Positions 1 through 59,350 of a stretch of DNA of 64,000 bases are shown piece after piece. The DNA comes from an uncultured Candidatus Saccharibacteria bacterium (lineage in GTDB: Bacteria; Patescibacteriota; Minisyncoccia; 2-02-FULL-40-12; GWA2-44-9). The notes beneath the pieces were generated by a model. That model was not told where the DNA came from. It did no database searches and worked only from the letters and a program-made list of their open reading frames with translations. Every line of letters begins with the position of its first letter. The first letter of the stretch is position 1. A program made the position numbers and the translations under genes. Where the stretch lies: assembly GCA_964491455.1 (NCBI GenBank), contig CAZBFM010000001.1, positions 564,903 to 628,902 of the forward strand. The letters run 5' to 3'.

Positions 1-96
1 AGTTGCAACGAGAAATGCCGCACCAACAACAATCCACATGCGTGGATTCTCTTTAAAAAACTCTCTGATGCGTCGTACTACATCCATCATCTTCAT
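1..96 (-). CDS. hypothetical membrane protein, N-terminal part only (gene runs off the window start)
   Basis: Minus-strand ATG at 94-96 gives MKMMDVVRRIREFFKENPRMWIVVGAAFLVAT..., hydrophobic. No stop before the window edge. Confidence 0.3.
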   Translation of the reverse strand, partial: MKMMDVVRRIREFFKENPRMWIVVGAAFLVAT

Positions 97-147: not shown

Positions 148-825
148 CTACATTTTCACCAAGGTTGCCTGAATCGCGATGCGCTTGTAGTTGGTGCCAA
201 CGGGATAACAACTGATCAAGAGGAGTGTAGAGCCAGGAGCATTCTCGAGTGCGGTGAGTCGCTCGTCGCGCTCAAAAGGATTGAAAATAATCGACTGCGT
301 CATCTCATAGACAAAGGTGCGATTGTCGTCGTACTGCACATAGAAGCGATCACCGACCGCAAGCTTGCTCAAGAGCGCAAAGACGGCGCCATAATTGCCG
401 TTGTACCACGGATATGCAGAACTATGACCGAGTACAATCGCAACACCCGGGAGCCCTGGTTTTGCCGTGTCGCTGTAGTGCACCACGCCGCGTTCTAGGC
501 TCTTATAAATCACGTCATTATCGTTGGGCACATTGAACACGAGGGGAGCATTGACGCCAATCTTATCGATCACAATTCGCGCAGAATTCGTGAGCGGCTT
601 TTCTTCTACCTTATCGGAAATCGGCAGGAGTCGGATTGCATCACCAAGCGAGTCCTTGGTAGTGATAGAGTTGGGAGCAAGTGAGTACTGCAGGCTCTTT
701 TCAACGAAACGAATGTTGAGCAAGAGAAACGCACCCACAAAGGTGAGAATAAAAATCGCAAACAAACGAAACGCAATCACGCGACCCCGATGGTGTAAAC
801 GCATCACCATAAGTATAGCAAACAA
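148..825 (-). CDS. sortase family transpeptidase
   Basis: 225-aa protein with an N-terminal TM anchor, a conserved His (VAIVLGHSS) and a catalytic Cys in a TLxTC-like context (TLLLISCYPVG). Lies directly downstream of a surface-protein gene on the same strand. Confidence 0.8.
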   Translation of the reverse strand: MFAILMVMRLHHRGRVIAFRLFAIFILTFVGAFLLLNIRFVEKSLQYSLAPNSITTKDSLGDAIRLLPISDKVEEKPLTNSARIVIDKIGVNAPLVFNVPNDNDVIYKSLERGVVHYSDTAKPGLPGVAIVLGHSSAYPWYNGNYGAVFALLSKLAVGDRFYVQYDDNRTFVYEMTQSIIFNPFERDERLTALENAPGSTLLLISCYPVGTNYKRIAIQATLVKM

Positions 826-872
826 AAACCACTCCGTAGAATGGAGTGGTTTTTGTTTGCATCGGTCGGCGA

Positions 873-2132
873 TTACTTTTTGAAGTTCAAACCGGTCGAT
901 TGCGTAAGTCGAGCAATCTCAACGCGTGCCAATCGATTCTGGAATCGAAGCGTGCGCGTGTAGGCAGCGTAGGCAGCAGTCGCCAGCGCAGCAAGAAGAA
1001 GGGATACCATGACTGAATCAGCAGGACCCGTTTTCACTGAAGAAACACTCGTGATGACTGCATTCTGACCAAGCACTATCGGCAATGATGCGGATATTGT
1101 GCTCATAGAATCTGCGCGAGCCTGTGCAATCGAGTAGACAGTCGTCATGGTTGAGGCTGGTACATACGCGCCATCGACACGGACGGAGAATTTGACTACC
1201 GACGCACTGTAGGGAGACACGGTGCCGATATAAATGCCAGTTGAGGTGACGCCATCAGCAACAACGGTGCCGTTGAGTGTGGTGGATCCGGAGATATAGT
1301 TCAATCCTGCTGGAAGCTGATCCGTAACATACGCATTATACAAGGAGCTGCCATTGGTCGAGCGCACACGAATAATCAAATCAAGCGTGTCCCCACCACG
1401 AGCACTCACAATCGCATACTCACCACTCTGACCACGTGTCACATTGCGACCCGTTTCTGCGATCGTCATGTGCGCATACGGCGCTGGAGTAGGAGTCGGA
1501 GTAACGTAGGAATTACCATAGACTGTCACGCCACACGTCACGGTCTGATACCCGCTGGTAACAGTAACATTACGATTGACCGCGTAGTTTGCGTAGTTAT
1601 AGTAGCGAGTGACAAAGTTTGAGTAGTTGCCATACGTTGGCGACCCCTCAGATGTGTACCATGAGTAGTTGCCATTTCCGCCCCATGCATTGAAGGAGAC
1701 GAGATCACCAGAGTTTGCATATGACGTCACTGCAGAGCAGTAGAGCGTACCATCATATGGAGTTGGCGTAGGAGTTGGTGTTCCGCAGGTAGAGTTCACG
1801 TACACCGTTGCGGTTGCAACCGCGTAGCCACCAGTCGTATTCGTGCCGGTGATAGTATAGGTTGCTGTCTGTGTAGGATAGACATACCGCTCGCCATAGG
1901 GGAGCACCGAGCCGATACCCTGATCAATCCAGACGCTTGTTGCATCCGTCGAAGACCATGCGATTCGCACAGGCTGGCCGGAGCAAACACTCGCCGGGGA
2001 AGCGGTGATTGCTACTGATGCCAAAAGGACATCCGCCGCAAAAACCGGAGCCGAGACAACAAGTCCCATGACCGCTACAAGGATTGATACGATGACGCGC
2101 TGCGTCAATGATGGGGTGGTGTTCATATGCAT
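873..2132 (-). CDS. cell-surface protein with Thr/Pro linkers, DUF11-like repeat domain and a C-terminal sorting-signal-like tail
   Basis: Signal peptide, TPTPTPTP linkers, and a repeat domain around LDLIIRVRSTNGSSLYNAYVTDQLPAGLNY. The C-terminus has VKTGP, a hydrophobic stretch, then a long Arg/Lys-rich tail. Co-directional with the sortase at 148..825. Confidence 0.65.
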   Translation of the reverse strand: MHMNTTPSLTQRVIVSILVAVMGLVVSAPVFAADVLLASVAITASPASVCSGQPVRIAWSSTDATSVWIDQGIGSVLPYGERYVYPTQTATYTITGTNTTGGYAVATATVYVNSTCGTPTPTPTPYDGTLYCSAVTSYANSGDLVSFNAWGGNGNYSWYTSEGSPTYGNYSNFVTRYYNYANYAVNRNVTVTSGYQTVTCGVTVYGNSYVTPTPTPAPYAHMTIAETGRNVTRGQSGEYAIVSARGGDTLDLIIRVRSTNGSSLYNAYVTDQLPAGLNYISGSTTLNGTVVADGVTSTGIYIGTVSPYSASVVKFSVRVDGAYVPASTMTTVYSIAQARADSMSTISASLPIVLGQNAVITSVSSVKTGPADSVMVSLLLAALATAAYAAYTRTLRFQNRLARVEIARLTQSTGLNFKK

Positions 2133-2241
2133 GTAATGTGGTTATAAACCTCCTGCACAAAGGTGCAAGCAGGTCACTCACTAGATAATCATTATATACT
2201 ACTAGATAATATATGTCAATAGCCCTCAATCGCTCAAATAC

Positions 2242-2270
2242 TTGACAAAACAAGGTTTTTAGCTTACAAT
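2242..2270 (+). promoter_or_regulatory. sigma70-type promoter (TTGACA-17 nt-TACAAT) for the lipoprotein gene
   Basis: Perfect -35 TTGACA (2242-2247) and -10 TACAAT (2265-2270) with a 17-nt spacer. RBS AAGGAG at 2305-2310 precedes a TTG start at 2317. Confidence 0.6.
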
Positions 2271-2316: not shown

Positions 2317-2808
2317 TTGAAAAAACTAGTTTTCGCCGCCGTGCTCCTGGCGATGATTTCGCTAGGAGCGTGCACCGGTCCCTGCAACGGCTGCGCACCT
2401 GGCTCGGGCCCGTCATCGTATGCCCCGACACCCACGCCGCGGCCGAGCGCGACACCAGCGCCAACGGCTACGCCAGCGCCGACGGCAACGCCTGCGCCGA
2501 CGCCCGTGCCGACGGCTACGCCAGTGCCGACCGCGACGCCTGCTCCGAACTGCACCTACGCAGTACAGGAGAGCCCTCAAAACTTCACCTATCAAGGTGG
2601 GAACGGTGGCTTCTCGGTCAGCGCCAGTCGCTCTGACTGCAGCTGGGGCGCCACTTCGAACGTAGGATGGATTGCCATCACCTCCAATTCGCAGGGGAGA
2701 GGTAATGGGTCGGTGACCTATTCGGTGGGTGGCAACGGCGCAGGCGCACGCACGGGCACGATCAGCGTTGCTGGAAAAGTCGTAGTAGTTGTCCAGCAGG
2801 GCAGGTAA
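2317..2808 (+). CDS. lipoprotein with Pro/Thr-rich linker and C-terminal Ig/BACON-like beta domain
   Basis: Signal peptide ending in the lipobox LGAC, a (TPAPTA)n linker, and a Cys/Gly-rich beta-strand domain. TTG start with a good SD. Confidence 0.65.
2425..2548 (+). repeat. in-frame tandem nucleotide repeat encoding a [10 protein letters not shown] linker
   Basis: Imperfect ~18-nt tandem units (acgccagcgccgacggct...) inside the lipoprotein CDS. The spurious Arg-rich ORFs on other frames come from this repeat. Confidence 0.7.
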
Positions 2809-2888: not shown

Positions 2889-3998
2889 CTACTTCGCCCA
2901 GAAGTTGAGCGTAACGCGTCCGTAGTACCGACCCGGATATTCGAATCCGATCACGGTTACCGCATAGCTGGCGCGGCTTCCGAGTGGTCCGGTAAATCCA
3001 ACACCAGCGCCACCCATCGGAAACGCAGATGCACTCATCAGCTCCCGAGCGGAAACTTTCTTAGTCACCGAAACGATAGTGCTTCGCGTTGTTCGCTGAT
3101 GGGCATCACCAACAATACGACCGACACCTGCACTGATGGATATCATCGGCTGGATGCCATGGCCACGGCCAACCGGAATCCTGAAATCACCCTCGATTCT
3201 CGCTCCCCACACGTTGACATTGGAGAGCGCCGTAGTCTCGATATCGAGGCCGCATGATGGGCACTGATATCGGGAAAACGAACCTTCGTAGATTGACTTT
3301 CGAGCAACGGTGAATCGCCACACCGTTGACGTTGGCGTGCCACGAGCAACGCCGATGTCGAAGTCTCGTCCCTGCATGCAAATCGTGCGACCAGTCATCG
3401 ACTCGAGGGCGCCACCCAGCGGCCGAGAGTCGAACTCGCCAATCATCGCACTCCCGGTGATACCCCACACAGGTATTGAGCTTTCTGGTGTGGGGACACG
3501 AGTGGGCGCGAGTGATTCGACCACTCTTCGCTCAGGCTTAGGTGATGACTGCAATTCAATGGTCCTTTGTGGAACCTCTTGATAGCTCGGGACTATCTGC
3601 ACGGGTTGCAACGGGGGAGCGATAGTGACGCCGTAGACGGGATTGCCACAATCATCACGAGCATAGAGCTGAAGCGACCCATCAGGCAGTCGATACGCCC
3701 GGAAGTAGGTGCCTTCACGTTGCGCAACGTACTTCTCGCCCCCGACCACCAGCATGCGGATGCACTGTGCGGACTCCAGCTGGACGCGGATCCTGTCGAC
3801 TCCGTTGACGGGATTTTTCGCGTTCAGGCCGAAGTACCGCGGCTCGTAATAGCGAAACTCGCCCGACTGCAAGGCCCCGTTGCAGGCAGCCAACGTAGAA
3901 AAGGTGTTCGGAGCGACCGGCGTGGTTGCATACGCATGATCCGACCATCCGATGACCAGACAGAACACACAAGCGAGAACGGCAAGCACTTTTTTCAT
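2889..3998 (-). CDS. secreted hypothetical protein
   Basis: 369 aa with a clear signal peptide (MKKVLAVLACVFCLVIGWSDHAYA) and no recognisable domain. Confidence 0.55.
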   Translation of the reverse strand: MKKVLAVLACVFCLVIGWSDHAYATTPVAPNTFSTLAACNGALQSGEFRYYEPRYFGLNAKNPVNGVDRIRVQLESAQCIRMLVVGGEKYVAQREGTYFRAYRLPDGSLQLYARDDCGNPVYGVTIAPPLQPVQIVPSYQEVPQRTIELQSSPKPERRVVESLAPTRVPTPESSIPVWGITGSAMIGEFDSRPLGGALESMTGRTICMQGRDFDIGVARGTPTSTVWRFTVARKSIYEGSFSRYQCPSCGLDIETTALSNVNVWGARIEGDFRIPVGRGHGIQPMISISAGVGRIVGDAHQRTTRSTIVSVTKKVSARELMSASAFPMGGAGVGFTGPLGSRASYAVTVIGFEYPGRYYGRVTLNFWAK

Positions 3999-5298: not shown

Positions 5299-5359
5299 GT
5301 GTCACAAGTATACACCAAAATATAAAAACAGAATGCCGTAGCATTCTGTTTTCTTGATG

Positions 5360-5446
5360 CGGTGGGGGTGAGATTCGAACTCACGATACGGTTACCCGTA
5401 TGTCGCATTTCAAGTGCGGTGCCTTAAACCACTCGGCCACCCCACC
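5360..5446 (-). tRNA. tRNA-Ser (anticodon TGA)
   Basis: Type-II tRNA with a long variable arm. Acceptor GGTGGGG/CCCCACC, anticodon loop CTTGAAA, discriminator G73. Confidence 0.8.
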
Positions 5447-5460
5447 ACCAACACTGACTG

Positions 5461-5547
5461 CGGAAGCGGGAGGATTCGAACCTCCGATGGGGTTACCCCC
5501 ATGCCACATTTCGAGTGTGGTGCCTTCAACCACTCAGCCACGCTTCC
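5461..5547 (-). tRNA. tRNA-Ser (anticodon CGA)
   Basis: Type-II tRNA. Acceptor GGAAGCG/CGCTTCC, anticodon loop CTCGAAA, discriminator G73. Confidence 0.8.
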
Positions 5548-22310: not shown

Positions 22311-24056
22311 ATGGAACTACCACCTGTCGGAGTATCTACAACACTTGCGCCCTCGGCAATAAAAATATCGCCCAACTTTTTGCAGGTCGGCGACAAATAC
22401 GCACGAACCATCTTTATAGCGACCTATCCGAGATTCTTAAATGCCAACTGGCTCTCGCCCATAGTGAACCTTGATAAGGTGCTCGATGTTTCGATTTTCG
22501 TAACACCGCAATCGACCGCCACTATGCTCAAGCAGTTGCGCGACCAGCTCACTCGCGTGCAATCTCAACTCATGGAAGAAGAGTCGGCGGGAAAAGTGAG
22601 AAACCCCATGCTTGAAACGGCAGTCGGTGACTTGGAATCGCTGCGTGATAGCCTTCAACAGGGGACCGAGCGATTCTTCCAGGTTGGACTCTACGTCACC
22701 ATGTATGAAAACAGCCTCCACGACCTCGACGAAACAGAGGGGAAGATAAAAAGCATACTCGATGGCCTCCTCGTGATTCCTAAGCAGACATCGTTTCGGA
22801 TGCTGGAAGGTTTTCTCACTACCTCGCCACTGGCCGATGATCGCATCCGTGCATTGACCCCGCTCAATACTCAACCCATCTCGTCGATGTTCCCGTTTGT
22901 GTCCAGCGACCTTACTTCCAACACGGGTATTCTATACGGTATCAACACCACCAATAACAGCATGGTGATATTTGATAGGTTCTCGCTTGAAAACGCAAAC
23001 TCCGTCATGTTTGCAAAATCAGGAGCCGGAAAAAGCTACACGGTGAAGCTTGAGCTTCTTCGCTATCTCTATCTGGGAACGCAGGTTCTCGTCATTGACC
23101 CTGAAAATGAGTATGGCTTTTTAGCGGATACTGTCGGAGGCACCAACGTTATAATCTCCATCAATTCCGATCAGCATATTAATCCGTTTGATTTACCAAC
23201 ACCGAAAGACGAAGAGTCTTGGAGTGACGTATTTAATTCGCATATCCTAAACTTAGCCGGACTCATGAAGCTCATCATGGGAGGGGGACTCACGCCCGAA
23301 GAAGAATCCATGCTCGATGAGGCGCTCATTCAAACATATGCGATTAAAGATATTGTGCCCGATTCAGATTTCTCCAAGCTTCCACCGCCTATCCTTTCTG
23401 ATCTTCACAACATTCTCTCCGGCATCACCGGCGCGGAGCGGATGGCAACACGTTTGGAAAAGTTTACCACGGGTACCTTTGCGGGCTTCTTGAATCATCC
23501 GACCAATGTACCACTCGATAATAACCTCGTTGTATTTGGTCTTCGTGACTTAGAGGACGAGCTCCGTCCAATCGCGATGTATTCGGTGCTTAATTATATC
23601 TGGGCGCAGGTGCGTCGTATACGAAAGAAGCGAATTCTCGTGGTAGATGAGGCGTGGGTACTCATGAAATACCAGACCGGTGCAGAATTCTTATTCAATA
23701 TCGCAAAGCGTGGACGTAAGTATTACTGCGGACTCTCGACGATCAGCCAAGACATTCCCGACTTCATGTCCACGCCGCAGGGGAAGGCAATCGTCACCAA
23801 CTCATCGATGCAAATGCTCATGAAACAATCACCCGCTTCCATCGATATCATTCAGCAAACGTTCAACCTTACCGATTCTGAGAAATTCTACCTCCTGGAA
23901 GCACGCGTAGGCTTTGGATTGTTCTTCCTCGGCGCTAACCACGTGGGCCTGCGAGTAATGGCTTCGTACGCAGAAGATCAAATCATCACATCCGATCCTC
24001 GTCAGCTTCTCGAGATAGAGAAGGCAAAAGAGGAGTGGGCTAAAGTAGGCAATTAA
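22311..24056 (+). CDS. virB4: VirB4/TrbE/CagE-family type IV secretion ATPase (C-terminal ATPase part)
   Basis: Walker A FAKSGAGKSYTVK, Walker B ILVVDEAW, and VGDKYARTIFIATYP at the start of the middle domain. Confidence 0.85.
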   Translation: MELPPVGVSTTLAPSAIKISPNFLQVGDKYARTIFIATYPRFLNANWLSPIVNLDKVLDVSIFVTPQSTATMLKQLRDQLTRVQSQLMEEESAGKVRNPMLETAVGDLESLRDSLQQGTERFFQVGLYVTMYENSLHDLDETEGKIKSILDGLLVIPKQTSFRMLEGFLTTSPLADDRIRALTPLNTQPISSMFPFVSSDLTSNTGILYGINTTNNSMVIFDRFSLENANSVMFAKSGAGKSYTVKLELLRYLYLGTQVLVIDPENEYGFLADTVGGTNVIISINSDQHINPFDLPTPKDEESWSDVFNSHILNLAGLMKLIMGGGLTPEEESMLDEALIQTYAIKDIVPDSDFSKLPPPILSDLHNILSGITGAERMATRLEKFTTGTFAGFLNHPTNVPLDNNLVVFGLRDLEDELRPIAMYSVLNYIWAQVRRIRKKRILVVDEAWVLMKYQTGAEFLFNIAKRGRKYYCGLSTISQDIPDFMSTPQGKAIVTNSSMQMLMKQSPASIDIIQQTFNLTDSEKFYLLEARVGFGLFFLGANHVGLRVMASYAEDQIITSDPRQLLEIEKAKEEWAKVGN

Positions 24057-28325: not shown

Positions 28326-29708
28326 ATGACCACTGTTGCGCCTGATGACATTTGGAAAACAGTGCTTGGTGAAATGGAACTCTCTCTTTCACGTGCGCAC
28401 TTCACCACGTGGTTCAAAAACACCAATGTGGTCACACGAGATCAAAATTCTGTGACCGTTAGCGTCCCGAATGGATTTGTGAAGGAATGGCTCGAGAGTA
28501 AATATAATCGTCAGATACTCACATCGATTCGAAAGCTCTCAAATGAGATCCGCGAAGTAAAGTATATCGTGGGACAACCAAAACCGGAGCCTCTCCGCCA
28601 AGATATATCGAAGATTATTAGCGAGAAGGAGTTTCAGGAGCAGGTTACCTATGATCAGAGTCAAGACGTTGATAAGGTTACTCATTTAAATAAGAAATAC
28701 TCATTTGATTCCTTTATTGTTGGTGGATCAAATGAATTCACCTTTGCATGTTCTCAAGCTGTTGCTGCAAATCCCGGGAAAAACTATAACCCGCTCTTCG
28801 TGTATGGGGGAGTTGGTCTTGGAAAGACCCACCTCATTCAATCAATTGGCAACCAAGTTCTGCAACAGTGGGGTGACAAGAAAGTCCTCTATACAACAGG
28901 CGAAAAACTCACTGCCACTATTGTTGAATCGATTAAAAATCGGACCGTGGAAGACGTGAAGACACAATACTCGAAACTCGACCTACTCATCATCGATGAT
29001 ATTCAGTATATCGCTGGCAAAGACAAGACACAGGAAATTGTATTCACGATTTTCAATGAACTTCACAATCGGAATAAGCAGGTAGTATGCACTTCTGATC
29101 GACCACCAAAAGCAATCCCAGCAATCACAGAGCGTCTCCAGTCTCGACTCGAAGGGGGGATGCTCGCGGAGATTAATATGCCAGACTACGAGACGCGATT
29201 AGCAATCTTAAAAACAAAGAGCCAAGAGAAAAATTGTCCACTGACCGACGAAGCCCTTTCGTATATTGCTACGCACATCCAAAAGAATGTACGAGAACTC
29301 GAGGGTGCTCTTAATAGAGTTATCGCCATAGCACAGATCTATAATCGAGTTCCTGACGTGAAAGAGATTAAGAACATTCTGAATGCATACCTTGCAGTGC
29401 CATATAGGAAGACGTCCCCGCAAGTAATACTCAAGACAGTCGCGGATTTCTTTACTATTCCTGTAGCAGACCTCACAAAACGTAGTCGCAAGAAAGAAGT
29501 TGTAAAGCCACGGCAAATTGCTATGTACTTACTACGAGAGGAAATAAAACTTTCATTCCCCGAAATCGGCCAGAAACTTGGCGGACGTGATCACTCAACC
29601 GTAATTCACGCGTGCGAGAAGATACGTCGAGAAGAAGGTGTTGATGAGCCACTCAAAAATGAGCTCACCATGATTCGACAGAGGATTTACGATTCGTTTG
29701 AGCACTAA
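28326..29708 (+). CDS. dnaA: chromosomal replication initiator DnaA
   Basis: AAA+ Walker A GGVGLGKTHL and the C-terminal DNA-binding domain (RQIAMYLLRE...GGRDHSTVIHA). Confidence 0.95.
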   Translation: MTTVAPDDIWKTVLGEMELSLSRAHFTTWFKNTNVVTRDQNSVTVSVPNGFVKEWLESKYNRQILTSIRKLSNEIREVKYIVGQPKPEPLRQDISKIISEKEFQEQVTYDQSQDVDKVTHLNKKYSFDSFIVGGSNEFTFACSQAVAANPGKNYNPLFVYGGVGLGKTHLIQSIGNQVLQQWGDKKVLYTTGEKLTATIVESIKNRTVEDVKTQYSKLDLLIIDDIQYIAGKDKTQEIVFTIFNELHNRNKQVVCTSDRPPKAIPAITERLQSRLEGGMLAEINMPDYETRLAILKTKSQEKNCPLTDEALSYIATHIQKNVRELEGALNRVIAIAQIYNRVPDVKEIKNILNAYLAVPYRKTSPQVILKTVADFFTIPVADLTKRSRKKEVVKPRQIAMYLLREEIKLSFPEIGQKLGGRDHSTVIHACEKIRREEGVDEPLKNELTMIRQRIYDSFEH

Positions 29709-31328: not shown

Positions 31329-33458
31329 TTACAGACCTGATCTGTGCTGCACCGCCCATTCCCAGTTCTGAAACTGAGGGTCGCTTTCTGGCGTTTCGGG
31401 AGTGAGTCCTTGTGGATTGTCTTTTGAAACTAAAAATAGGATCGAATGATCTGAGGGTACTCCGTTCAATACAGGATGAGAGGCGATAATAGGGTCTGGG
31501 ATGATAAAAGATTCAGAAGGGGTACCAGAGAGCGCTTTGGACATAAAAGCGTTCCACAGAGGTCCTGCGGCGCTTATACCAGCACCCGCAGCTGTCATCG
31601 ACTGATTGCGATTGTTACCAACCCAGACACCAACTGCTAATGTGGGAGAATATCCAACAACCCATGCGTCACGATTCTCTTGGGTTGTACCTGATTTTGC
31701 CGCGACGTCGCGTCCAGAAATAAATAAAGCATTTGCATTTCCAAACGCTGCGGCTCGCGCCGGGTTATCACTGAGAACATCATTCATGAGGCGAGCCGTT
31801 TGTGCATCAAGAACTCGCTCGGGTTTTATTTGGCGTTCTTCTAAGATGGAGCCGTTGTTAAGTTCAATTTTCTGAATAAAACCCCAAGGAACGCGAACTC
31901 CATCGTTGGCAAAGACTCCATATGCAGATACTAAATCTACAGGACGAACTTCTGCGCCTCCTAGTACAAGCGATAATCCAAAACGTGAACGGTCGGTGAG
32001 TGTTGTGATACCCATACGAGTAGCGAGATCGATAACCGTATCAATGCCAGCAAGATAGAGCGTCTTTACTGATGTTGTATTGAGCGATCTCGCAAGCGAT
32101 TGGCGCATTGATACTGGTCCAGAATAGGAGCCAGAGTAATTCTTTGGATGATAACAGGCTTGGCCAGTTGGATCTTTTGTTTGCGAGGCATCGGGTGAAC
32201 AGAGGGGATTAAATTCTGTTTTTACATCCCACAGGATAGTACTGTCGGGGTATCCCTTCTGAAACGCAGCTGCGTAAGCGAATGGCTTAAATGCAGAACC
32301 GGGCTGACGTTGTGCGAGGGCAACATTGAAGTTTCCTTCATTTGCTACATCGAAGTAGTTCGCAGAACCAACAAGAGCTCGAACTTCGCCAGTTTTTGGA
32401 TCGATAGCTACAAGTGAGGCGTTGTTGGCTTTGTATTTCTCAGCATTAATCTTTGCGTACTTTGCTACGAGCTCTTCTGCGCTCTTTTGCATCTCGGCAT
32501 CGAGTGTGGTGATTATCTTGAATCCACCACTTGATACAATGTCCTTTCCATATTTTTGCGTAACATAATCGCGCGCCATGATCACAAAGTGTGGGGCAGC
32601 GAGACCGCTGGATTTTGCTTGAAACACGAGCTGCTCCTTTACGGCATTCTGATACACATCTTCAGTGATGAATCCTAATTGACGCATGCGACTAAGAACA
32701 TAATCCTTGCGGCCAAGAAGTTCATCGACATGAGAGCCGTAGGGGGATAAATACGAAGGTCGTTGCACGAGTGATGCCAGGAGAGCGCTTTGCGCTACTG
32801 AAAGATCTGATGCTGGAACCTTAAAGTATGTTTGGCTGGCAGATTCTATGCCATACGCATTGTCGCCGTAGGGAACTTGATTGAGGTACATCTCAAAGAT
32901 CTTGTCTTTTGTGTAGCGTTGCTCCACCTCGATAGCGAGGATCAATTCCTGAACTTTGCGGGTAAGATTCTTTTCACGACCAACGAGCGCATTGCCAACA
33001 AGTTGCTGGGTTAAGGTTGAACCGCCACCGGAACCAAAACCTTGTGAGATGTTCTGAAGAAGGGAACGAGCAAATCCACGAACATCGAATCCATGATGTG
33101 AATAGAATCGACTATCCTCAACGGCAAGTGTTGCATTCTTAATATTGATACTAATATGGTCAAAATCAACGACTGTGCGACGTTCTTCATCGTAGATGTC
33201 GTAGAGCACCGTAGTACCTGTTCTGTCGTAGATTTTTGTTGATTCTTTAATTTGACGTGAAACAATAGATTCAGGATCGGGAACTTTACTCTTCGCGTAG
33301 AGCACAAATAATGAAACACCAATAACACCGAGCGTGATAATCCACGCAGTGAGTGTGGCGATACTTGTAACCCACGATTTCCATGATGGAGCGCTACGGC
33401 GAATCGACCGTAGTAAGGAGGAAACCTTAAACTTCTTGGAGTAGGATGTGGTCTTCAT
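31329..33458 (-). CDS. class A penicillin-binding protein (glycosyltransferase GT51 + transpeptidase)
   Basis: GT51 motifs EDSRFYSHHGFD and GGSTLTQQL, plus transpeptidase SGSAFKPF (SxxK) and KSGTT (KTG). Confidence 0.9.
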   Translation of the reverse strand: MKTTSYSKKFKVSSLLRSIRRSAPSWKSWVTSIATLTAWIITLGVIGVSLFVLYAKSKVPDPESIVSRQIKESTKIYDRTGTTVLYDIYDEERRTVVDFDHISINIKNATLAVEDSRFYSHHGFDVRGFARSLLQNISQGFGSGGGSTLTQQLVGNALVGREKNLTRKVQELILAIEVEQRYTKDKIFEMYLNQVPYGDNAYGIESASQTYFKVPASDLSVAQSALLASLVQRPSYLSPYGSHVDELLGRKDYVLSRMRQLGFITEDVYQNAVKEQLVFQAKSSGLAAPHFVIMARDYVTQKYGKDIVSSGGFKIITTLDAEMQKSAEELVAKYAKINAEKYKANNASLVAIDPKTGEVRALVGSANYFDVANEGNFNVALAQRQPGSAFKPFAYAAAFQKGYPDSTILWDVKTEFNPLCSPDASQTKDPTGQACYHPKNYSGSYSGPVSMRQSLARSLNTTSVKTLYLAGIDTVIDLATRMGITTLTDRSRFGLSLVLGGAEVRPVDLVSAYGVFANDGVRVPWGFIQKIELNNGSILEERQIKPERVLDAQTARLMNDVLSDNPARAAAFGNANALFISGRDVAAKSGTTQENRDAWVVGYSPTLAVGVWVGNNRNQSMTAAGAGISAAGPLWNAFMSKALSGTPSESFIIPDPIIASHPVLNGVPSDHSILFLVSKDNPQGLTPETPESDPQFQNWEWAVQHRSGL

Positions 33459-37492: not shown

Positions 37493-39178
37493 TTAACCTA
37501 GCACTCTATGAATCTCCTCGATTGATGTGACTCCATCAATCAACTTTAGGTACCCGTCTTGCACCATCGTGACCATCCCTTCTTTGATTGCCAGGTCACG
37601 AATGTCTGTAACGGATGCCTCGTCTAAAATAAGTCGCTCCATAGCTCTGGTCACTTCAAACACCTCATACACTCCCACACGACCCTTGTAGCCGATTGAA
37701 TTGCACTCTGCGCACCCGCCAGGTCCATACAATGTCACGGTATCGAGCTTTGGAAGAGAGAATCGCTCCGCGATAGGGGAGATCTGTGCTGAGAGTTTTT
37801 GGGAATCTGCCTCCGAGAGTGTGACTGGTTTTTTGCAGTGTTCGCAAAGACGGCGAACGAGTCGTTGACCCATCGCCATTGTGAGCGCTGGGGCGACTGT
37901 GTCCGGCCGAACGCCGATATCAACGAGACGAGGTATGGTGCCAGCGGCGTCGTTAGTGTGAATCGTTGAGAGCACCATGTGACCCGTGAGAGCGGCTTCA
38001 AGGGCGATACTCGCTGTTTCGAGGTCGCGGATTTCACCGATGAGAATAATGTCGGGGTCTTGTCGTACGATTGCGCGTAGCCCTCCCGCGAATGTATAGC
38101 CCTTCGATGGTTCTACTTGGGTTTGGTTGACTCCCTTGATGTGATACTCGATAGGATCTTCCACGGTGATGATCTTCATATCGGGAGTGTTGAGGAAGTT
38201 CAAAAATGCATAGAGTGTCGTGGTTTTTCCAGAACCTGTGGGTCCGGTGGTGAGGAGGGTGCCTTGTGGGCGCGCGAGCAGTTCTTTCACTTTCTCGAGT
38301 ACGTCAGTACGCATGCCAAGGTCTTCAAGTTTTGCTTGAATGCCACGAGGGTCGAGCAAGCGCATCACAATAGACTCACCATATTCACTCGGAAGAACAG
38401 AAACACGAACTTCGATAGCGATGTCACTTTGACGGATGGTGAATCGGCCATCTTGCGGCGCCTTGGTGATGTTGAGCTTCATCTTGGAGAGCACTTTAAC
38501 GCGGCTCAACACGCGCTGATATCGCTCCTTATCAATTGTAGCGACTTCATGGAGAAGACCATCGAGACGATAGCGGAGACGTACAAGGTCTGATTCTGGT
38601 TCGAAGTGAATATCCGACGAGCGAGTCGCGAGTGCGCCAGCGATGAGCATTTCAAATAATTCAGTGACGGGAATATCAGCGAGCTTTGTTTTGATATCGG
38701 TGATAGTCTTGATTGACTGTGATGCTTTTGCAAGCGCGGCGTCATCAACATCAATAGCGCCCACCTCGAATACATCAGCGGTGGTGATGGTCGCGTAGCG
38801 TTGCCAAATCGACTCCATGGTGCGGAGGTCTACGATGAGGATCTTATTGGTGGGATATTGAGTGGTAATACTCGAAATGACCTCTTGCGCCTCTGGTGTG
38901 CGTGGGTCGAGCGCGGCAATTATCGCTGTCGCTGCTTGTACTTGAATGAGCGCAACGCCAGATGCGCGAGATTGGCTTTCTGGTACGTGCTTGAGAGCTG
39001 ATTGGTCTACAAGGAGTGCGTGAGAATCGAGAAAGGGCAAGCCAAGTTCTGTGGCGAGAGCTTGCGCGGTGCGAGTTTGCTCGTGTTCACTGATCTGTGC
39101 GAGCTTCTTATCGAGCTCAGCCGAGGCGTTGTTGGTGGTAGGGGGGACGGTGTTCGTCGACATATCTGAAGCCACCAT
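37493..39178 (-). CDS. pilB: GspE/PilB-family secretion ATPase (type IV pilus assembly ATPase-like)
   Basis: Walker A TGPTGSGKTT, Asp box, Walker B ILIGEIRD, and the C-terminal tetracysteine (CEHC...CAEC). Confidence 0.85.
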   Translation of the reverse strand: MVASDMSTNTVPPTTNNASAELDKKLAQISEHEQTRTAQALATELGLPFLDSHALLVDQSALKHVPESQSRASGVALIQVQAATAIIAALDPRTPEAQEVISSITTQYPTNKILIVDLRTMESIWQRYATITTADVFEVGAIDVDDAALAKASQSIKTITDIKTKLADIPVTELFEMLIAGALATRSSDIHFEPESDLVRLRYRLDGLLHEVATIDKERYQRVLSRVKVLSKMKLNITKAPQDGRFTIRQSDIAIEVRVSVLPSEYGESIVMRLLDPRGIQAKLEDLGMRTDVLEKVKELLARPQGTLLTTGPTGSGKTTTLYAFLNFLNTPDMKIITVEDPIEYHIKGVNQTQVEPSKGYTFAGGLRAIVRQDPDIILIGEIRDLETASIALEAALTGHMVLSTIHTNDAAGTIPRLVDIGVRPDTVAPALTMAMGQRLVRRLCEHCKKPVTLSEADSQKLSAQISPIAERFSLPKLDTVTLYGPGGCAECNSIGYKGRVGVYEVFEVTRAMERLILDEASVTDIRDLAIKEGMVTMVQDGYLKLIDGVTSIEEIHRVLG

Positions 39179-43521: not shown

Positions 43522-43593
43522 GTCCCCGTAGCTCAACGGATAGAGCAGCAGCCTTCGAAGCTGTTGATGGGGGTTCGATTCCCTCCGGGGACA
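43522..43593 (+). tRNA. tRNA-Arg (anticodon TCG)
   Basis: Acceptor GTCCCCG/CGGGGAC, anticodon loop CTTCGAA, D-loop AACGGATA. No CCA. Confidence 0.75.
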
Positions 43594-43615
43594 CACTCCG
43601 GCACGCACATTTCAT

Positions 43616-43691
43616 CCGCCCTTAGCTCAGTTGGTAGAGCTGCTCCCTCTTAAGGAGAAGGTCCCTGGTTCGAATCCAGGAGGGCGGACCA
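43616..43691 (+). tRNA. tRNA-Lys (anticodon CTT), CCA encoded
   Basis: Acceptor CCGCCCT/AGGGCGG, anticodon loop CTCTTAA, and a genomic 3' ACCA. Confidence 0.8.
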
Positions 43692-43698
43692 TCACAAA

Positions 43699-43730
43699 CA
43701 GAAAACACCCCGCGAGGGGTGTTTTCTGTT
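43699..43730. terminator. bidirectional intrinsic terminator (13-bp perfect stem)
   Basis: CAGAAAACACCCC-gcga-GGGGTGTTTTCTG with flanking A and T tracts. Serves the tRNA pair on the plus strand and the 3D-domain gene on the minus strand. Confidence 0.8.
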
Positions 43731-43733
43731 GGC

Positions 43734-44279
43734 TTACTTGATGACTTCAATCTGGACGAGGCGACGACCCAATTTAATAGCATCGGCCTTTGATTCAAAC
43801 CAGACGTCAACGTTCTTCTTGTACCGAGTGTTCATACGGTCTTCGACAACGAAGATCTTATCTCCAAAGAGAGAGGGGATCTTGATGGCGGTACCGAAGG
43901 GGAACATGTTAGTGGCAACGATACCATCACGGACGTGAGTACCTTTTGCTGTAATGAACGGACTGTCATCAGTCTGGCCCACCTCGGAGTTGTAAGCAGA
44001 CACTTCAACCATATAGTACTGACGAATAGTCTTTGCAGCGCCACCTTTGGGAGAGTTGATCGCGGCTATCGCATTACCAACGACGGTAGGCTGTTCATTG
44101 TCTTGAGCAGCACCCTGCGTGATAGAGGCGTAGAGAGAGTCGAAGGATCCGTTGCTGGCAACGTCCGAAGACGCAGCGTTAGAACGAAACCAATCGAGAA
44201 ATCCTGCCTGCGCAGATGTCGTGGTAAGGAGCGAGATTGCAATGAGCGATACGACCAGAATGTGCTTTCGCGTATTCAT
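43734..44279 (-). CDS. secreted 3D-domain (MltA-like) cell-wall-binding protein
   Basis: Signal peptide and a C-terminal 3D domain (GIVATNMFPFGTAIKIP...IFVVEDRMNTRYKKNVDVWFES...LGRR). Confidence 0.7.
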   Translation of the reverse strand: MNTRKHILVVSLIAISLLTTTSAQAGFLDWFRSNAASSDVASNGSFDSLYASITQGAAQDNEQPTVVGNAIAAINSPKGGAAKTIRQYYMVEVSAYNSEVGQTDDSPFITAKGTHVRDGIVATNMFPFGTAIKIPSLFGDKIFVVEDRMNTRYKKNVDVWFESKADAIKLGRRLVQIEVIK

Positions 44280-44537
44280 GGTGTTTCCGTCTACGATAGA
44301 GGGGTGAGTCGTTTCTGCCTATGCAGGACGGCTCTCCAGAATCGTTACAGGCGGCGTTGCAATCCAGCTCTTTATCAGGGGAGAGGAATTAAAAAATGGC
44401 CTACTTGAGCCATATATTAGTACCTCTATTACTCACTGGATTGTACATACAGTATAGCAAATATAGAGCAAAAAGTCAATAGCTGCGTACCATCACGAAA
44501 AGATGCAAAAACGCCCCTTTTGAGGCGTTTTATGGTG

Positions 44538-44608
44538 AGCGGGTAAGGGGAGTCGAACCCCTTTCTGGTCCTTGGCAAGGACCCATAATACCGGTATACG
44601 ATACCCGC
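44538..44608 (-). tRNA. tRNA-Gly (anticodon GCC)
   Basis: Anticodon loop TTGCCAA and U73 discriminator. An own promoter TTGATT-16 nt-TATACT lies at 44622-44649 on the minus strand. Confidence 0.75.
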
Positions 44609-44675
44609 AACTACGAAAGACAGTATACCACGAAGATGGAGCGAATCAATATCCAGGAGCTTGAGGGTGTGGGCG

Positions 44676-44884: not shown

Positions 44885-44921
44885 GAAAACCACCCGATAA
44901 TGGATGGTTTTCTTGGTATTT

Positions 44922-44993: not shown

Positions 44994-45086
44994 CAGCTAT
45001 GACTATTGTATCCCTTCGCGCCTATGCGCTTGTGGGTACTTGGCCAGCCACTCTCTTCAGGATGCTGAATATTGAGTGGCCAAGTG

Positions 45087-57578: not shown

Positions 57579-58742
57579 ATGAAAGGATTACGCTTACCAT
57601 TACTCTTCATAGCGATTATCGGGTTGGCTCTTGGGCCTACGGTGGTTTCTGCGGCTGATTTTCTTCCTATCGTAAAATGCGGAGCAACAGGGCAGGCGCC
57701 ATGTACGCCGTGCGATATTTTTGGATCGCTCAAGAATATTATCGATTTTATTCTCAAGGGAGTTACAGGTCCGGTCGCTGCGTTTATGATTGTCTATTCT
57801 GGCGGCATGATGCTTCTGGGTGGAGGGAAACCCGAACTCTATAGTGAGGGCAAGAAGATGCTCACGAACACACTTATTGGTGTCACGATCATTCTGCTTG
57901 CGTGGGTAGTGACTAATTTCTTGATTCGCGCACTCATGCCGGGAGTGTCGACGGGCTCGTCTTGGTTTGAGTTTTCGTGTCCTGCGAGCTTATCTGCTAT
58001 CGCACCAATCGACACGACGCTGCCAAGTCCAGTTCCTAGTACAGCGGCTGACGGCTCCACTCCTGCTGCGCCCCCAACCACGAAGCCTTCGTATGCGGGT
58101 ATCTTGTGCCCAATTAGTGACAAGATAAATACATGCAGCACAGACTATGTGTGCCAAGGATGTCCAGAGTATAGAAATGCTGGATATTTTACAAAATATG
58201 GTGCAGACGCGAGAATCCTCGAGGCCATCATGGCAGTGGAGTCCTCCTGCGGAAGCGCGGGGTCGTTGGTGAGTAGTGCGCAAGCTTACGGTATAATGCA
58301 GCTTAAGACAGACACTGCCAATAAGCATGTGCAGCAGTGTCAGATCTATAAGCTGGGGGATGACGGTCAGCCACTACGAAATACAAAAACAGGACAATTT
58401 GTGTATGAGACGATTACTCCTGCGTGGTTGCTAAATAAAAATAACTTCGAAAAAAGTGTTTGCTTGGCAGCGATGGAGGTGCGCGCGGTCAAGGGCATAT
58501 GCAACAATGATATTCGAAATATTGCCGCTGGATATAATTCTGGACCTGGATGGTGCAAGATTAGCAAGGACTGTGCACAAATGCCGAGTTGTGGGGGTGG
58601 TGTGATGCGCGCCTGGGAGTGTCCATGGGATAACGCAACGCACACTGTATGTAACGAAACCCGTGAAGGTGGGGGGCTCATTGAAACGAAGCGGTACGCA
58701 CCGAAGGTCGCGACGCTAGCAACCTGCGCAAATCCAAAATGA
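57579..58742 (+). CDS. fusion of an N-terminal pilin-like two-TM domain (paralog of the 59365-60672 array) with a C-terminal SLT lytic transglycosylase domain
   Basis: N-terminus VYSGGMMLLGGGKPELYSEGKKMLTNTLIGVTIILLAWVV aligns with the four downstream paralogs. C-terminus has EAIMAVESSCGS...YGIMQL (SLT catalytic Glu-Ser and the GxMQ motif). Confidence 0.65.
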   Translation: MKGLRLPLLFIAIIGLALGPTVVSAADFLPIVKCGATGQAPCTPCDIFGSLKNIIDFILKGVTGPVAAFMIVYSGGMMLLGGGKPELYSEGKKMLTNTLIGVTIILLAWVVTNFLIRALMPGVSTGSSWFEFSCPASLSAIAPIDTTLPSPVPSTAADGSTPAAPPTTKPSYAGILCPISDKINTCSTDYVCQGCPEYRNAGYFTKYGADARILEAIMAVESSCGSAGSLVSSAQAYGIMQLKTDTANKHVQQCQIYKLGDDGQPLRNTKTGQFVYETITPAWLLNKNNFEKSVCLAAMEVRAVKGICNNDIRNIAAGYNSGPGWCKISKDCAQMPSCGGGVMRAWECPWDNATHTVCNETREGGGLIETKRYAPKVATLATCANPK

Positions 58743-59350
58743 AATATCTCCTGGTAATCGTTCTAGTGTCTGGATTGTTCATGCCTTTGTTGGCGTATGC
58801 TGAGAGCCTCTCCTACGATGAGGCGTATGGTAATTATTTGTATCAGTTTCACTTGAGCGTCTCGGGCACAACCCTGACGAGCAATGAGATCTACGATATC
58901 TTGACCGGGGATGTGCCAGCGATTCCTCGAGGCGATTGGTCGGTGATGGTCACTAATAGTCGCGGCGAAAAATTGTATTCGCAATTCTTCGACGCAGCGA
59001 AGCTTGCAGCTCAAGGCGGAGACTTTACCATTCCGTATCAAAATAGTGGAACAGAGGCGATTTTTAAAAACAGTACTGGCGTTACCGCTCTCTCTATTGA
59101 TTTAACGGGCAGTAGGGTGTGCGATGATAATGGAGTATGCTACGCAGACGCTGGAGAGAACTCTTATAACTGTCCCGGTGACTGTGGAGCTATAGCAGCG
59201 CAGCCTGCGCTGCAAGTGGCCACCGTTGGTGCTCAGATCCCGCTGTCGAGTAGGATTGGGGAGGTTGTGATGAAGCTGGCATTTGGGGTGGCGGGTATCC
59301 TTATAATCACCGGCGTTGCGCAATCGCTGGACAGGCGCCGAAGGGCATAG
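58739..59350 (+). CDS. secreted protein with C-terminal TM anchor and RRRR tail
   Basis: Signal peptide. C-terminus is LAFGVAGILIITGVAQSLDRRRRA. 4-nt overlap with the upstream gene. Confidence 0.5.
   Translation: MKYLLVIVLVSGLFMPLLAYAESLSYDEAYGNYLYQFHLSVSGTTLTSNEIYDILTGDVPAIPRGDWSVMVTNSRGEKLYSQFFDAAKLAAQGGDFTIPYQNSGTEAIFKNSTGVTALSIDLTGSRVCDDNGVCYADAGENSYNCPGDCGAIAAQPALQVATVGAQIPLSSRIGEVVMKLAFGVAGILIITGVAQSLDRRRRA

What the first reader, a model, noticed from the sequence alone, without database searches (positions are those of the whole stretch)
148..2132. Sortase with an adjacent surface protein carrying a non-canonical sorting-signal-like C-terminus
The surface protein (DUF11-like repeats, TP linkers) ends with VKTGP, 18 hydrophobic residues, and an unusually long, ~35-aa Arg/Lys-rich tail. 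It is co-transcribed with a sortase. There is no LPXTG or LAXTG. An LPIVLG sequence lies 20 aa upstream of the TM. The sortase may recognise a divergent motif, or the tail may serve another anchoring role.
Basis: partly seen in the sequence, partly recalled or inferred. Interest (0 to 1): 0.5.

Follow-up and report, generated by a model that had tools for sequence, protein, structure and literature searches.

The report
Patescibacterial sortase with non-LPXTG sorting tag
A tiny-genome (CPR/Patescibacteria) bacterium encodes a sortase next to surface proteins whose C-terminal tag replaces the classic LPXTG motif with [V/I]-x-T-G-P and adds an unusually long, conserved cytoplasmic tail. No curated family model tested here matches this tag.

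Summary
Window 873..2132 (-) encodes a 419-aa secreted protein made of three Ig-like domains, the last a DUF11/CLIPPER domain. Window 148..804 (-) encodes a 218-aa membrane-anchored sortase with an intact His-Cys-Arg triad.

The C-terminus (SVKTGPADS, a transmembrane helix, then a 28-aa tail ending LNFKK) belongs to a conserved, fixed-length module of about 50 aa. Its consensus is [VI]-x-T-G-P-[GA]-[DE], a 17-aa membrane span, Y-x-x-Y-T-[RH]-[ST]-x-x-[FY]-[RK]-R-[RH]-E, about 12 residues, then [DN]-F-[RKS]-x. A profile of the module finds 270 protein clusters among 1.84 billion representatives. In nearly all of the best 150 the match is at the extreme C-terminus. No LPXTG occurs.

Three more proteins with the tag lie directly downstream of the sortase, just past the window edge. 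In 57 Patescibacteria loci the tag lies next to this sortase clade, and its residues change with sortase divergence. LPIVLG is only the last beta-strand of the DUF11 domain.

Verdict: a new variant of sortase sorting signals, inferred from comparison and not tested biochemically. The role of the long tail is unknown.

The parts
873..2132 (-). Gene for the 419-aa surface protein, the 'major' sortase substrate. Layout: signal peptide, Ig-like domain, TP linker, Ig-like domain, TP linker, DUF11/CLIPPER domain, C-terminal sorting module.
   Evidence: ORF. DUF11/TIGR01451 hits. 93 homologues, all those named from Patescibacteria. AF2 model with three beta-sandwiches at aa 39-113, 131-205 and 222-354.
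2031..2132 (-). Signal peptide (aa 1-34, ...SAPVFA|AD). The cleavage site is inferred by eye from the A-x-A rule.
   Evidence: Sequence. N-terminal hydrophobic helix at aa 12-20 and low pLDDT over aa 1-34. Aligned signal peptides in homologues.
1071..1469 (-). DUF11/CLIPPER (CnaA-like Ig) domain, aa 222-354. Its last strand contains LPIVLG (window 1068..1085).
   Evidence: Pfam/TIGR01451. AF2 strand E346-354 at pLDDT about 85. Distant homologues show an alternating strand pattern here, such as NPVSITIG and NQVNVNVG, rather than LPxTG.
876..1043 (-). C-terminal sorting module, aa 364-419. It comprises SS-VKTG-PADS (predicted sortase site T368|G369), a transmembrane helix (aa 370-392), and a 28-aa cytoplasmic tail with a helix at aa 395-411 ending LNFKK.
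   Evidence: Conservation. Profile search giving 270 clusters with the match C-terminal. AF2 helices, with aa 358-369 disordered.
1023..1037 (-). VKTGP, an instance of the family motif [VI]-x-T-G-P.
   Evidence: In 148 representatives: P3 is V or I in 96%, T-G in 100%, P2' is Pro in 76%, and none has LPxTG.
148..804 (-). Sortase gene (218 aa from MRLHH). It has an N-terminal membrane anchor and an extracytoplasmic catalytic domain with H127, C199 and R208.
   Evidence: PF04203 at 71 bits. Invariant LGHSSAYPWY, L[IL]SCYPVGT and R in 20 homologues. AF2 plus Foldseek to sortase structures at E 6e-11. Start codon set by alignment.
818..860 (-). Intergenic hairpin (18-bp stem, 7-nt loop, flanking A- and U-runs) resembling an intrinsic terminator, lying after the surface-protein gene.
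   Evidence: dG -37.3 kcal/mol, z -8.3. The structure is conserved with different sequence in 12 loci.
812..820 (-). TGnTATACT, an extended -10-like element 7 nt upstream of the sortase ATG. It suggests a separate, near-leaderless sortase transcript.
   Evidence: Conserved position and sequence in L001-L011 and L030. This is an inference, not a tested promoter.
2191..2219 (-). Perfect sigma-70-type consensus (TTGACA-17-TATAAT) upstream of the surface-protein gene.
   Evidence: 12 of 12 matches.
1..96 (-). First 32 codons of the next substrate gene (771 aa, cut by the window edge). Two further tagged genes follow beyond the window.
   Evidence: Translation MKMMDVVRRIREFFKENPRMWIVVGAAFLVAT is identical to L001:4082-6397. 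L001 shows proteins of 771, 671 and 404 aa ending in xxTGPG[DE], a membrane span, and ...DFRS.

Best explanation
This is a Patescibacteria-specific sortase system whose substrates carry a non-LPXTG C-terminal sorting module.

Proposed mechanism:
1. The 419-aa protein is exported through Sec.
2. It is held in the membrane by its C-terminal helix, with the 28-aa tail in the cytoplasm.
3. The flexible linker S-V-K-T368|G369-P-A-D is presented at the outer membrane face.
4. The neighbouring sortase is N-terminally anchored, with its catalytic domain outside and a His127-Cys199-Arg208 triad. It cleaves between T and G.
5. The sortase transfers the ectodomain to an envelope amine. The most likely acceptor is a peptidoglycan precursor, since a class A PBP is encoded in the window. 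A lysine of another subunit is the alternative.
6. The same sortase serves the three co-directional downstream proteins, which carry the same module.
7. The roughly 50-aa remnant, with its conserved Y-T-R-[ST]..F-R-R-x-E and terminal [DN]-F motifs, stays in the membrane and probably has a second role. Candidates are substrate retention or recognition, or sensing of the cleaved peptide.

Shown here: the genes, the fold, the triad, the conserved module, the gene linkage and the co-variation.

Inferred: cleavage at T|G, the acceptor, and the tail's role.
For: Sortase identity:
- Pfam hit.
- Invariant H, C and R in homologues.
- AF2 model matching solved sortases at Foldseek E 6e-11, probability 1.0.

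The module is a conserved unit:
- T-G is invariant, P3 is V or I in 96%, P2' is Pro in 76%, and position +4 is D or E in 79%.
- The distance from T-G to the C-terminus is 46-54 aa.
- [DN]F lies in the last 6 residues in about 95%.
- 270 clusters among 1.84e9 representatives, with the match C-terminal in nearly all of the best 150.

Linkage to the sortase:
- Four tagged genes flank one sortase in this organism.
- There are 65 tag hits in 842 kb of sortase neighbourhoods, 64 of them on the sortase strand.
- Every locus whose sortase scores at least 190 bits has at least one tag hit, except L023.
- The residue after T-G shifts with sortase divergence.
- More distant sortases sit next to [VI]xTG tags with a different long tail.

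Topology: T-G lies in a disordered linker directly before a predicted membrane helix.

Precedent for V at P3 with cleavage at T|G: EVPTG and QVPTG pilins of S. pyogenes (PMC3019223).

A peptidoglycan acceptor is plausible because a transglycosylase/transpeptidase PBP lies at window 31329..33458.
Against: - There is no biochemical or proteomic evidence of cleavage.
- The T-G invariance is partly enforced by how I located the motif. However, alignments A2 and A4 independently give invariant T and G.
- Only neighbourhoods were examined, not whole genomes. Tagged genes far from a sortase, or LPXTG proteins elsewhere in this genome, cannot be excluded.
- The tail's mean net charge is only +2.8 and ranges from -3 to +8. 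It is therefore not a classic positive stop-transfer tail.
- The sortase fits none of the curated classes A-F, so its specificity cannot be read from homology.
Confidence: 0.75

Rival explanations
1. The cluster is a sortase-assembled pilus or fibre. The strongly expressed 419-aa protein would be the shaft subunit, polymerised by the sortase through T368 to a lysine of the next subunit. The three downstream tagged proteins would be tip, accessory or basal subunits. This is a sub-variant of the main explanation, not exclusive of it.
For: - One sortase sits with four Ig-domain substrates, like pilin islands.
- The sortase is closest in sequence and structure to pilin-specific class C sortases.
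- The first gene has a consensus promoter and a terminator hairpin after it, as major-subunit genes often do.
- The ectodomain has only 2 lysines in 332 aa. One of them, K314, is conserved in 31 of 34 homologues.
- V at P3 is known from the S. pyogenes pilin motif EVPTG.
Against: - K314 is R or E in 3 of 34 homologues, so it is not an invariant nucleophile.
- No YPKN-like pilin motif was seen.
- The sortase has no DP[FWY] lid and no C-terminal anchor, both typical of class C.
- Class C is only marginally ahead of classes D, E and A in Foldseek.
- Lysine poverty is shared by other secreted proteins of the window, at 1.8-2.4% K.
Confidence: 0.3
2. The C-terminal module is a permanent membrane anchor whose conserved cytoplasmic tail docks to an intracellular partner. 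It is not cleaved, and the neighbouring sortase acts on other proteins.
For: - The tail is long, conserved in sequence and length, and predicted helical. This is unlike the short basic tails of classical sorting signals.
- No cleavage data exist.
Against: - An invariant T-G sits exactly at the outer membrane boundary, in a disordered linker.
- The tag is tightly linked, on the same strand, to one sortase clade and co-varies with it.
- No alternative LPXTG-type substrate is present near any of these sortases.
- Relatives with the same VKTG[AP] motif have ordinary short tails, for example P0055, P0058, P0060 and L055.
Confidence: 0.12
3. The tag is processed by a different enzyme, such as an exosortase-, archaeosortase- or rhombosortase-like intramembrane protease. 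Sortase adjacency would then be coincidental.
For: The tripartite architecture (motif, membrane span, charged tail) is shared with PEP-CTERM, PGF-CTERM and GlyGly-CTERM tags. TGPG[DE] is Gly- and Pro-rich like some of these motifs.
Against: - No polytopic protease gene was seen in the clusters. The only other recurrent neighbour, found in distant loci, is a CAP-domain membrane protein.
- No NCBIfam or Pfam sorting-domain model matches.
- Sortase adjacency holds across about 30 loci.
Confidence: 0.05

Closest known systems
LPXTG cell-wall sorting signal with housekeeping sortase (S. aureus SrtA paradigm)
   Same: - An N-terminally anchored sortase with a His-Cys-Arg triad.
- The substrate has a signal peptide and a C-terminal tripartite signal: a motif containing T-G, a hydrophobic span, and a charged tail.
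- The predicted scissile bond is T|G.
   Different: - P4 and P3 are not Leu-Pro. P3 is V or I and P4 is variable.
- Pro follows the Gly.
- The tail is about 28 aa with conserved motifs (YTR[ST]..F.RR.E and a terminal [DN]F) rather than 5-10 basic residues.
- The module has a fixed length.
- The LPXTG models do not match.
- The sortase falls below all class A-F cut-offs.
S. pyogenes pilin signals (E/Q/V)(V/P)PTG processed by the pilus sortase Spy0129 (PMC3019223)
   Same: - Valine at P3 with cleavage between Thr and Gly.
- Many family members here read Q-V-P-T-G exactly.
- The sortase is encoded among its Ig-domain substrates.
   Different: - Spy0129 is a class B sortase. The sortase here gave no class B match and is nearest to class C.
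- P2 is variable here (P, Q, K, A or S).
- The long conserved tail has no counterpart in S. pyogenes.
- The host is Patescibacteria rather than Firmicutes.
Class C pilin-specific sortases and pilin gene clusters (A. oris SrtC-1 2xwg, GBS SrtC1, C. diphtheriae SrtA)
   Same: - These are the best sequence-profile and structural matches.
- One sortase sits with several Ig-like (CnaA-type) substrates in one cluster.
   Different: - No DP[FWY] lid motif. A conserved DAIRLLP stands in that region instead.
- No C-terminal membrane anchor.
- The NCBIfam class C score is 35.5 against a cut-off of 160.
- No recognisable pilin-motif lysine.
Sensing of the membrane-retained C-terminal peptide left by sortase A in S. 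gordonii (as summarised in PMC11326707)
   Same: It gives a precedent for the post-cleavage remnant of a sorting signal having a function of its own. That could explain why the tail here is conserved.
   Different: No sensor kinase was seen next to these clusters. The idea is an analogy only and was not tested.

Membership tests
Sortase superfamily (PF04203) | Profile match above the curated threshold | tested here: met
   PF04203 at 71 bits against a cut-off of 26.6, covering profile positions 1-125 of 125.
Sortase superfamily (PF04203) | Catalytic His, Cys (TLxTC-like) and Arg conserved | tested here: met
   Invariant LGHSSAYPWY (His), L[IL]SCYPVGT (Cys) and R in 20 homologues. In the 218-aa protein these are H127, C199 and R208.
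Sortase superfamily (PF04203) | Eight-stranded beta-barrel sortase fold | tested here: met
   AF2 catalytic domain at pLDDT about 85-94. Foldseek matches to more than 100 sortase chains, the best being 2xwg at E 6e-11 and probability 1.0.
Sortase classes A-F (NCBIfam class models) | Score above the class-specific cut-off | tested here: not met
   Best scores were class D 40.5 against 165, class F 40.0 against 166, class C 35.5 against 160, and class E 32.2 against 160. There was no class A or class B hit. The generic TIGR01076 model scored 36.1 against 39.35.
Class C (pilin-polymerising) sortase | Lid with a DP[FWY] motif over the active site, and a C-terminal membrane anchor | tested here: not met
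   No DPW, DPF or DPY occurs in the sequence. The protein ends 8 residues after the catalytic Arg, with no C-terminal hydrophobic segment. Nearest structures are class C, but classes D, E and A follow closely.
LPXTG-type sorting signal (TIGR01167 / Gram_pos_anchor) | LPXTG (or LAXTG, LPXTA, NPQTN) pentapeptide before the membrane span | tested here: not met
   The sequence reads SVKTG. None of 148 family representatives has LPxTG. No sorting-domain model matched at E up to 10.
LPXTG-type sorting signal (TIGR01167 / Gram_pos_anchor) | Hydrophobic span followed by a charged C-terminal tail, on a protein with an N-terminal signal peptide | tested here: met
   Transmembrane helix at aa 370-392. 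The tail has 7 basic and 1 acidic residue. Signal peptide at aa 1-34.
LPXTG-type sorting signal (TIGR01167 / Gram_pos_anchor) | Cleavage after Thr and amide linkage to peptidoglycan or a pilin lysine | not testable with these tools
   This needs a peptide cleavage assay or mass spectrometry of the mature protein.
DUF11 / CLIPPER (PF01345, TIGR01451) | Profile match and a CnaA-like beta-sandwich | tested here: met
   TIGR01451 at 33.1 bits against a cut-off of 24. Pfam at 22.9 against 24.6, just below threshold. AF2 beta-sandwich at aa 222-354 with pLDDT about 85-92. 51 of 76 tag-bearing proteins match DUF11.
DUF11 / CLIPPER (PF01345, TIGR01451) | Intramolecular Lys-Asn isopeptide bond | not tested
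   The first strand reads MTIAETGRN, with no lysine. The CLIPPER paper notes that some DUF11 domains lack the bond. I did not analyse this further.

The most novel reading that the evidence does not exclude
Patescibacteria use a lineage-specific sortase pathway with a fixed-length module of about 50 aa. Its outer part ([VI]xTGP[GA][DE]) would be the transpeptidation site. Its conserved cytoplasmic tail (YTR[ST]..FRRxE ... [DN]F) would be a second, intracellular recognition or signalling element, for example docking to the sortase's conserved MRLHxRxR N-terminus or reporting that processing is complete. The four-gene cluster would build a covalently linked, lysine-poor Ig-domain fibre used for attachment to host cells.
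Probability: 0.25. Interest if true: 0.75.

Novelty: new variant of a known kind. Interest (0 to 1): 0.55.

Why it matters
Sortases are reported in more than half of CPR/Patescibacteria genomes (PMC6744442). In the papers I could search, nobody has said what these sortases recognise. LPXTG-based annotation misses these substrates: they are labelled 'DUF11 domain-containing' or 'hypothetical'.

A defined tag would let the sortase-dependent surface proteome of these episymbiotic, mostly uncultured bacteria be predicted. These proteins are likely candidates for host attachment.

The tag would also widen the known sequence space of sortase recognition, with V or I at P3 and Pro at P2'. This is of interest for sortase-based protein ligation.

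A conserved 28-aa cytoplasmic tail on a sorting signal raises a testable question: does the part left behind after cleavage do something?

Tried and rejected
1. LPIVLG as a cryptic LPXTG. Rejected. It is the last beta-strand of the DUF11 domain (AF2 strand 346-354). In distant homologues it becomes NPVSITIG or NQVNVNVG, an alternating strand pattern.
2. Assigning the sortase to classes A-F. All NCBIfam class models fall far below cut-off. PDB profile and Foldseek searches favour class C only marginally, and the lid and C-terminal anchor are absent.
3. Curated sorting-domain models for the tag. None matched in NCBIfam or Pfam at E up to 10.
4. Literature. Six full-text searches found no description of a CPR sortase motif. 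The 2026 'Pam pilus' of CPR is a donor-strand-exchange system in other classes and is unrelated.
5. Foldseek search with the whole surface-protein model. It returned only generic tandem Ig hits such as integrin legs, adhesins and BcpA, at TM-scores of 0.26 or less.
6. A second sortase or a second tagged protein in the window. HMM searches found only one of each. The ORF at 58685..59350 has a C-terminal membrane span plus RRRRA but no T-G motif and no profile hit.
7. K314 as an obligatory pilin lysine. It is not invariant, at 31 of 34.
8. Lysine depletion as a substrate-specific signal. It is shared with other secreted proteins.
9. Rfam. Only tRNAs were found.
10. Taxonomy of tag-bearing clusters. 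Few carry names, and those that do are Patescibacteria.
Full report
**1. What is in the window**

Two co-oriented minus-strand ORFs occupy the stated interval.

The first, 873..2132, encodes a 419-aa protein.
- It has an N-terminal signal peptide (…SAPVFA|AD).
- It has two TPTPTP-type linkers.
- It has one DUF11/CLIPPER domain: TIGR01451 at 33.1 bits against a cut-off of 24, and Pfam DUF11 at 22.9 against 24.6.
- An AlphaFold2 model built on 34 homologues shows three beta-sandwich domains at aa 39-113, 131-205 and 222-354. A disordered stretch follows at aa 358-369, then two helices at aa 370-392 and 395-411.

The second ORF is a sortase.
- Pfam PF04203 scores 71 bits against a cut-off of 26.6.
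- Alignment with 19 homologues, typically of 218 aa, places the true start at MRLHH, window 804.
- The alignment shows an N-terminal membrane anchor and invariant His (LGHSSAYPWY), Cys (L[IL]SCYPVGT) and Arg.
- The AF2 model matches solved sortases at Foldseek E 6e-11 and probability 1.0.

The organism is a Paceibacterota (Parcubacteria, CPR) bacterium. A 99% identical locus comes from MAG Gw_Eff_bin_126. The same protein is recorded on a 652,729-bp contig.

**2. The C-terminus is a conserved module**

The protein ends …LPIVLGQNAVITSVSS-VKTG-PADSVMVSLLLAALATAAYAAY-TRTLRFQNRLARVEIARLTQSTGLNFKK. It contains no LPXTG or LAXTG.

Of the 93 homologues returned, 64 share this architecture. The distance from T-G to the C-terminus is nearly constant, at 50 aa in most.

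A 60-position profile of this region (A2) was searched against 1.84 billion representative proteins.
- It found 270 clusters at E ≤ 1e-3 and 102 at E ≤ 1e-10.
- In nearly all of the best 150 the match lies at the very C-terminus.

On 148 representatives the motif statistics are as follows.

| Feature | Value |
|---|---|
| P3 | V or I in 96% |
| P2 | variable (P, Q, K, A, S) |
| T-G | invariant |
| P2' | Pro in 76% |
| Next position | G or A |
| Position +4 | D or E in 79% |
| T-G to end | 46-54 aa |
| [DN]-F within last 6 residues | about 95% |
| Tail | mean 28 aa, net charge +2.8 |
| LPxTG | none |

T and G are also invariant in two independent MAFFT alignments.

Of 76 tagged proteins scanned, passenger domains are mostly Ig-like stalk domains: DUF11 in 51, PKD in 22, bMG10 in 9 and fn3 in 6. 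No Pfam or NCBIfam model matches the module.

**3. Linkage to the sortase**

A contig from the same organism (L001) extends past window position 1. It shows three more co-directional genes after the sortase, encoding proteins of 771, 671 and 404 aa. The window holds the first 32 codons of the 771-aa gene at 96..1. All three proteins end in xxTGPG[DE], a membrane span, Y..YT[RH][ST]..Y.RRE, then ...DFRS.

A scan of one genome per species found 57 loci with relatives of the sortase, all but one labelled Patescibacteria or unclassified 'bacterium' MAGs; the exception is a 2.5-kb contig binned to a Lutibacter MAG (L044). Local HMM searches over these loci, L001 and the window (842 kb in total) gave 65 tag hits.
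- 64 of them lie on the sortase strand, usually directly adjacent.
- Every locus whose sortase scores at least 190 bits carries at least one tag hit, except L023.
- The window itself holds exactly one sortase and one tag.

The residue after T-G tracks sortase divergence.

| Sortase score against A1 | Sequence after T-G |
|---|---|
| ≥ 400 bits | TGP |
| ~ 315 bits | TGA |
| ~ 250-275 bits | TGT |
| ~ 190-215 bits | TGS, TGG, TGA, TGT or TGI |

Still more distant sortases (Portnoybacteria and others) sit beside large proteins ending GEVLGA[SA]T[VI]xTG[PAF], a membrane span, and a different tail of about 45 aa ending RFK[QK]VY[WLF].

No genuine LPXTG-type tail occurs among 1863 ORFs of at least 100 aa in this material.

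**4.

- *LPIVLG.* It spans aa 350-355 and is the final beta-strand of the DUF11 domain (AF2 strand 346-354). In distant homologues it is an alternating strand pattern. It is not a sortase motif.
- *Tail length.* The tail is 28 aa, not about 35.
- *Domains.* There is one DUF11 domain plus two other Ig-like domains.
- *Co-transcription.* This is doubtful.
  - A perfect 18-bp hairpin with a U-run lies between the genes (window 818..860; dG -37.3 kcal/mol, z -8.3).
  - It is followed by TGnTATACT 7 nt before the sortase ATG.
  - In 12 related loci a strong hairpin of different sequence and the same TGnTATACT, 6-7 nt before the ATG, recur at this position.
  - A perfect TTGACA-17-TATAAT lies upstream of the surface-protein gene.
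  - The picture is a strongly expressed first gene with a terminator or attenuator, then a separately (perhaps leaderlessly) transcribed sortase and accessory genes. This is an inference from sequence.

**5. Mechanism proposed**

The protein is exported by Sec and retained by the C-terminal helix with the tail inside the cell. The disordered linker presents S-V-K-T|G-P at the membrane surface. The sortase Cys199 attacks the T368-G369 bond, and the acyl-enzyme is resolved by an envelope amine.

A peptidoglycan acceptor is plausible, because the window encodes a class A PBP at 31329..33458.

V at P3 with cleavage at T|G has an experimentally established precedent in the EVPTG and QVPTG pilins of S. 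pyogenes (PMC3019223). Many family members here read Q-V-P-T-G.

The invariant FNPF in the predicted beta6/beta7 loop and a conserved DAIRLLP in the linker before beta1 are candidate specificity or lid-like elements. This is inference only.

A conserved tail argues for a second function. A precedent for functional post-cleavage C-peptides exists in S. gordonii (PMC11326707). The sortase's own cytoplasmic N-terminus (MRLHxRxR) is also conserved. I could not test docking because no structure-prediction jobs remained.

**6. Wall anchor or pilus?**

Points in favour of a pilus:
- the four-substrate, one-sortase layout
- the nearest structural neighbours are class C pilin sortases
- the expression architecture described above
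- a lysine-poor ectodomain, with 2 K in 332 aa against a window mean of 5.76% (p ≈ 6e-7), and K314 conserved in 31 of 34 homologues

Points against:
- K314 is not invariant
- there is no lid motif and no C-terminal anchor
- other secreted proteins in the window are also lysine-poor

I rate polymerisation at about 0.3, as a sub-variant of the main explanation.

**7. Comparison with what is known, and novelty**

The enzyme belongs to the sortase superfamily but reaches none of the curated class A-F thresholds. The tag has the classical tripartite logic but fails the defining LPXTG feature and matches no curated sorting-domain model.

Méheust et al. (PMC6744442) reported that sortases are widespread in CPR. 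They gave no motif, and I found none described elsewhere in the searchable literature.

I therefore class this as a new variant of a known kind. All functional steps beyond gene content, fold, conservation and linkage are inferred.

Noticed in passing
window 812-860 (minus strand); L001-L011 and L030 intergenic regions: A structure-conserved terminator-like hairpin is followed immediately by TGnTATACT, 6-7 nt before the sortase ATG. This suggests a near-leaderless sortase mRNA and a separately terminated major-subunit transcript.
   Followed up: partly
window 1-96 (minus); L001:4082-9703; homologues in L003-L010, L013, L015, L030: The three downstream substrates lack a classical signal peptide. 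Instead they have a basic N-terminus, a membrane helix, and then a conserved motif G-F-[ST]-[LF]-[DEQ]-[VIF]-x-R-F-F-A. The G-F-T-L-[DE] part resembles the type IV prepilin cleavage motif but lies after the helix, not before it. Its meaning is unknown.
   Followed up: partly
L013, L019, L034, L035 and L051 (checked by Pfam); similar ~300-350-aa membrane ORFs directly upstream of the sortase in many other loci: In loci with more divergent sortases, a protein of about 300-350 aa sits directly upstream of the sortase. The five tested have a CAP (PF00188) domain; all have C-terminal membrane helices. No such gene lies next to the sortase in the window's clade.
   Followed up: partly
L034, L038, L043, L045, L051, L054: A second family of long-tailed tags lies next to distant sortases. 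It reads GEVLGA[SA]T[VI]xTG[PAF], a membrane span, and a basic tail of about 45 aa ending RFK[QK]VY[WLF].
   Followed up: no
window 873-2132 and its homologues (alignment A3): The ectodomains are extremely lysine-poor, typically with 2 K in 330-480 aa. The two recurring lysines are K314 in the DUF11 domain and K367 at P2 of the motif. Other secreted proteins of the window (2317-2808 and 2889-3998) are also lysine-poor, at 1.8-2.4% against a 5.8% mean.
   Followed up: partly
window 148-804 (sortase aa 55-61 and 174-177): A conserved DAIRLLP lies in the low-confidence linker where class C sortases carry their lid. An invariant FNPF lies in the predicted beta6/beta7 loop. The cytoplasmic N-terminus MRLHxRxR is also conserved, which is unusual for a simple signal anchor.
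   Followed up: no
window 2317-2808 (+) and 2242-2270 (+): A divergently transcribed lipoprotein-like gene encodes a cysteine lipobox-like N-terminus, a long PT-rich linker, and a weak BACON-like domain. An 11-of-12 sigma-70 consensus lies back-to-back with the surface-protein promoter.
   Followed up: no
window 22311-24056, 37493-39178, 57579-58742, 58685-59350: These regions hold other envelope machinery. They include a TraG/VirB4-like P-loop ATPase, a PilB/T2SSE ATPase, and a protein combining a T4SS-pilin domain with an SLT lytic transglycosylase domain. A cysteine-rich 221-aa ORF follows, with a C-terminal membrane span plus RRRRA but no T-G motif.
   Followed up: no
window 28326-29708 and 16 tRNA genes (for example 5359-5547 and 43522-47653): dnaA lies in the window, so the replication origin region is probably nearby. 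The tRNA density is high, with 16 genes in 64 kb, including tRNA-Ile(UAU).
   Followed up: no
L044 (contig JBAZGP010000581.1): A 2.5-kb contig binned to a Lutibacter MAG carries the CPR-type sortase and CAP-protein pair. This is probably a binning error rather than occurrence outside Patescibacteria.
   Followed up: no
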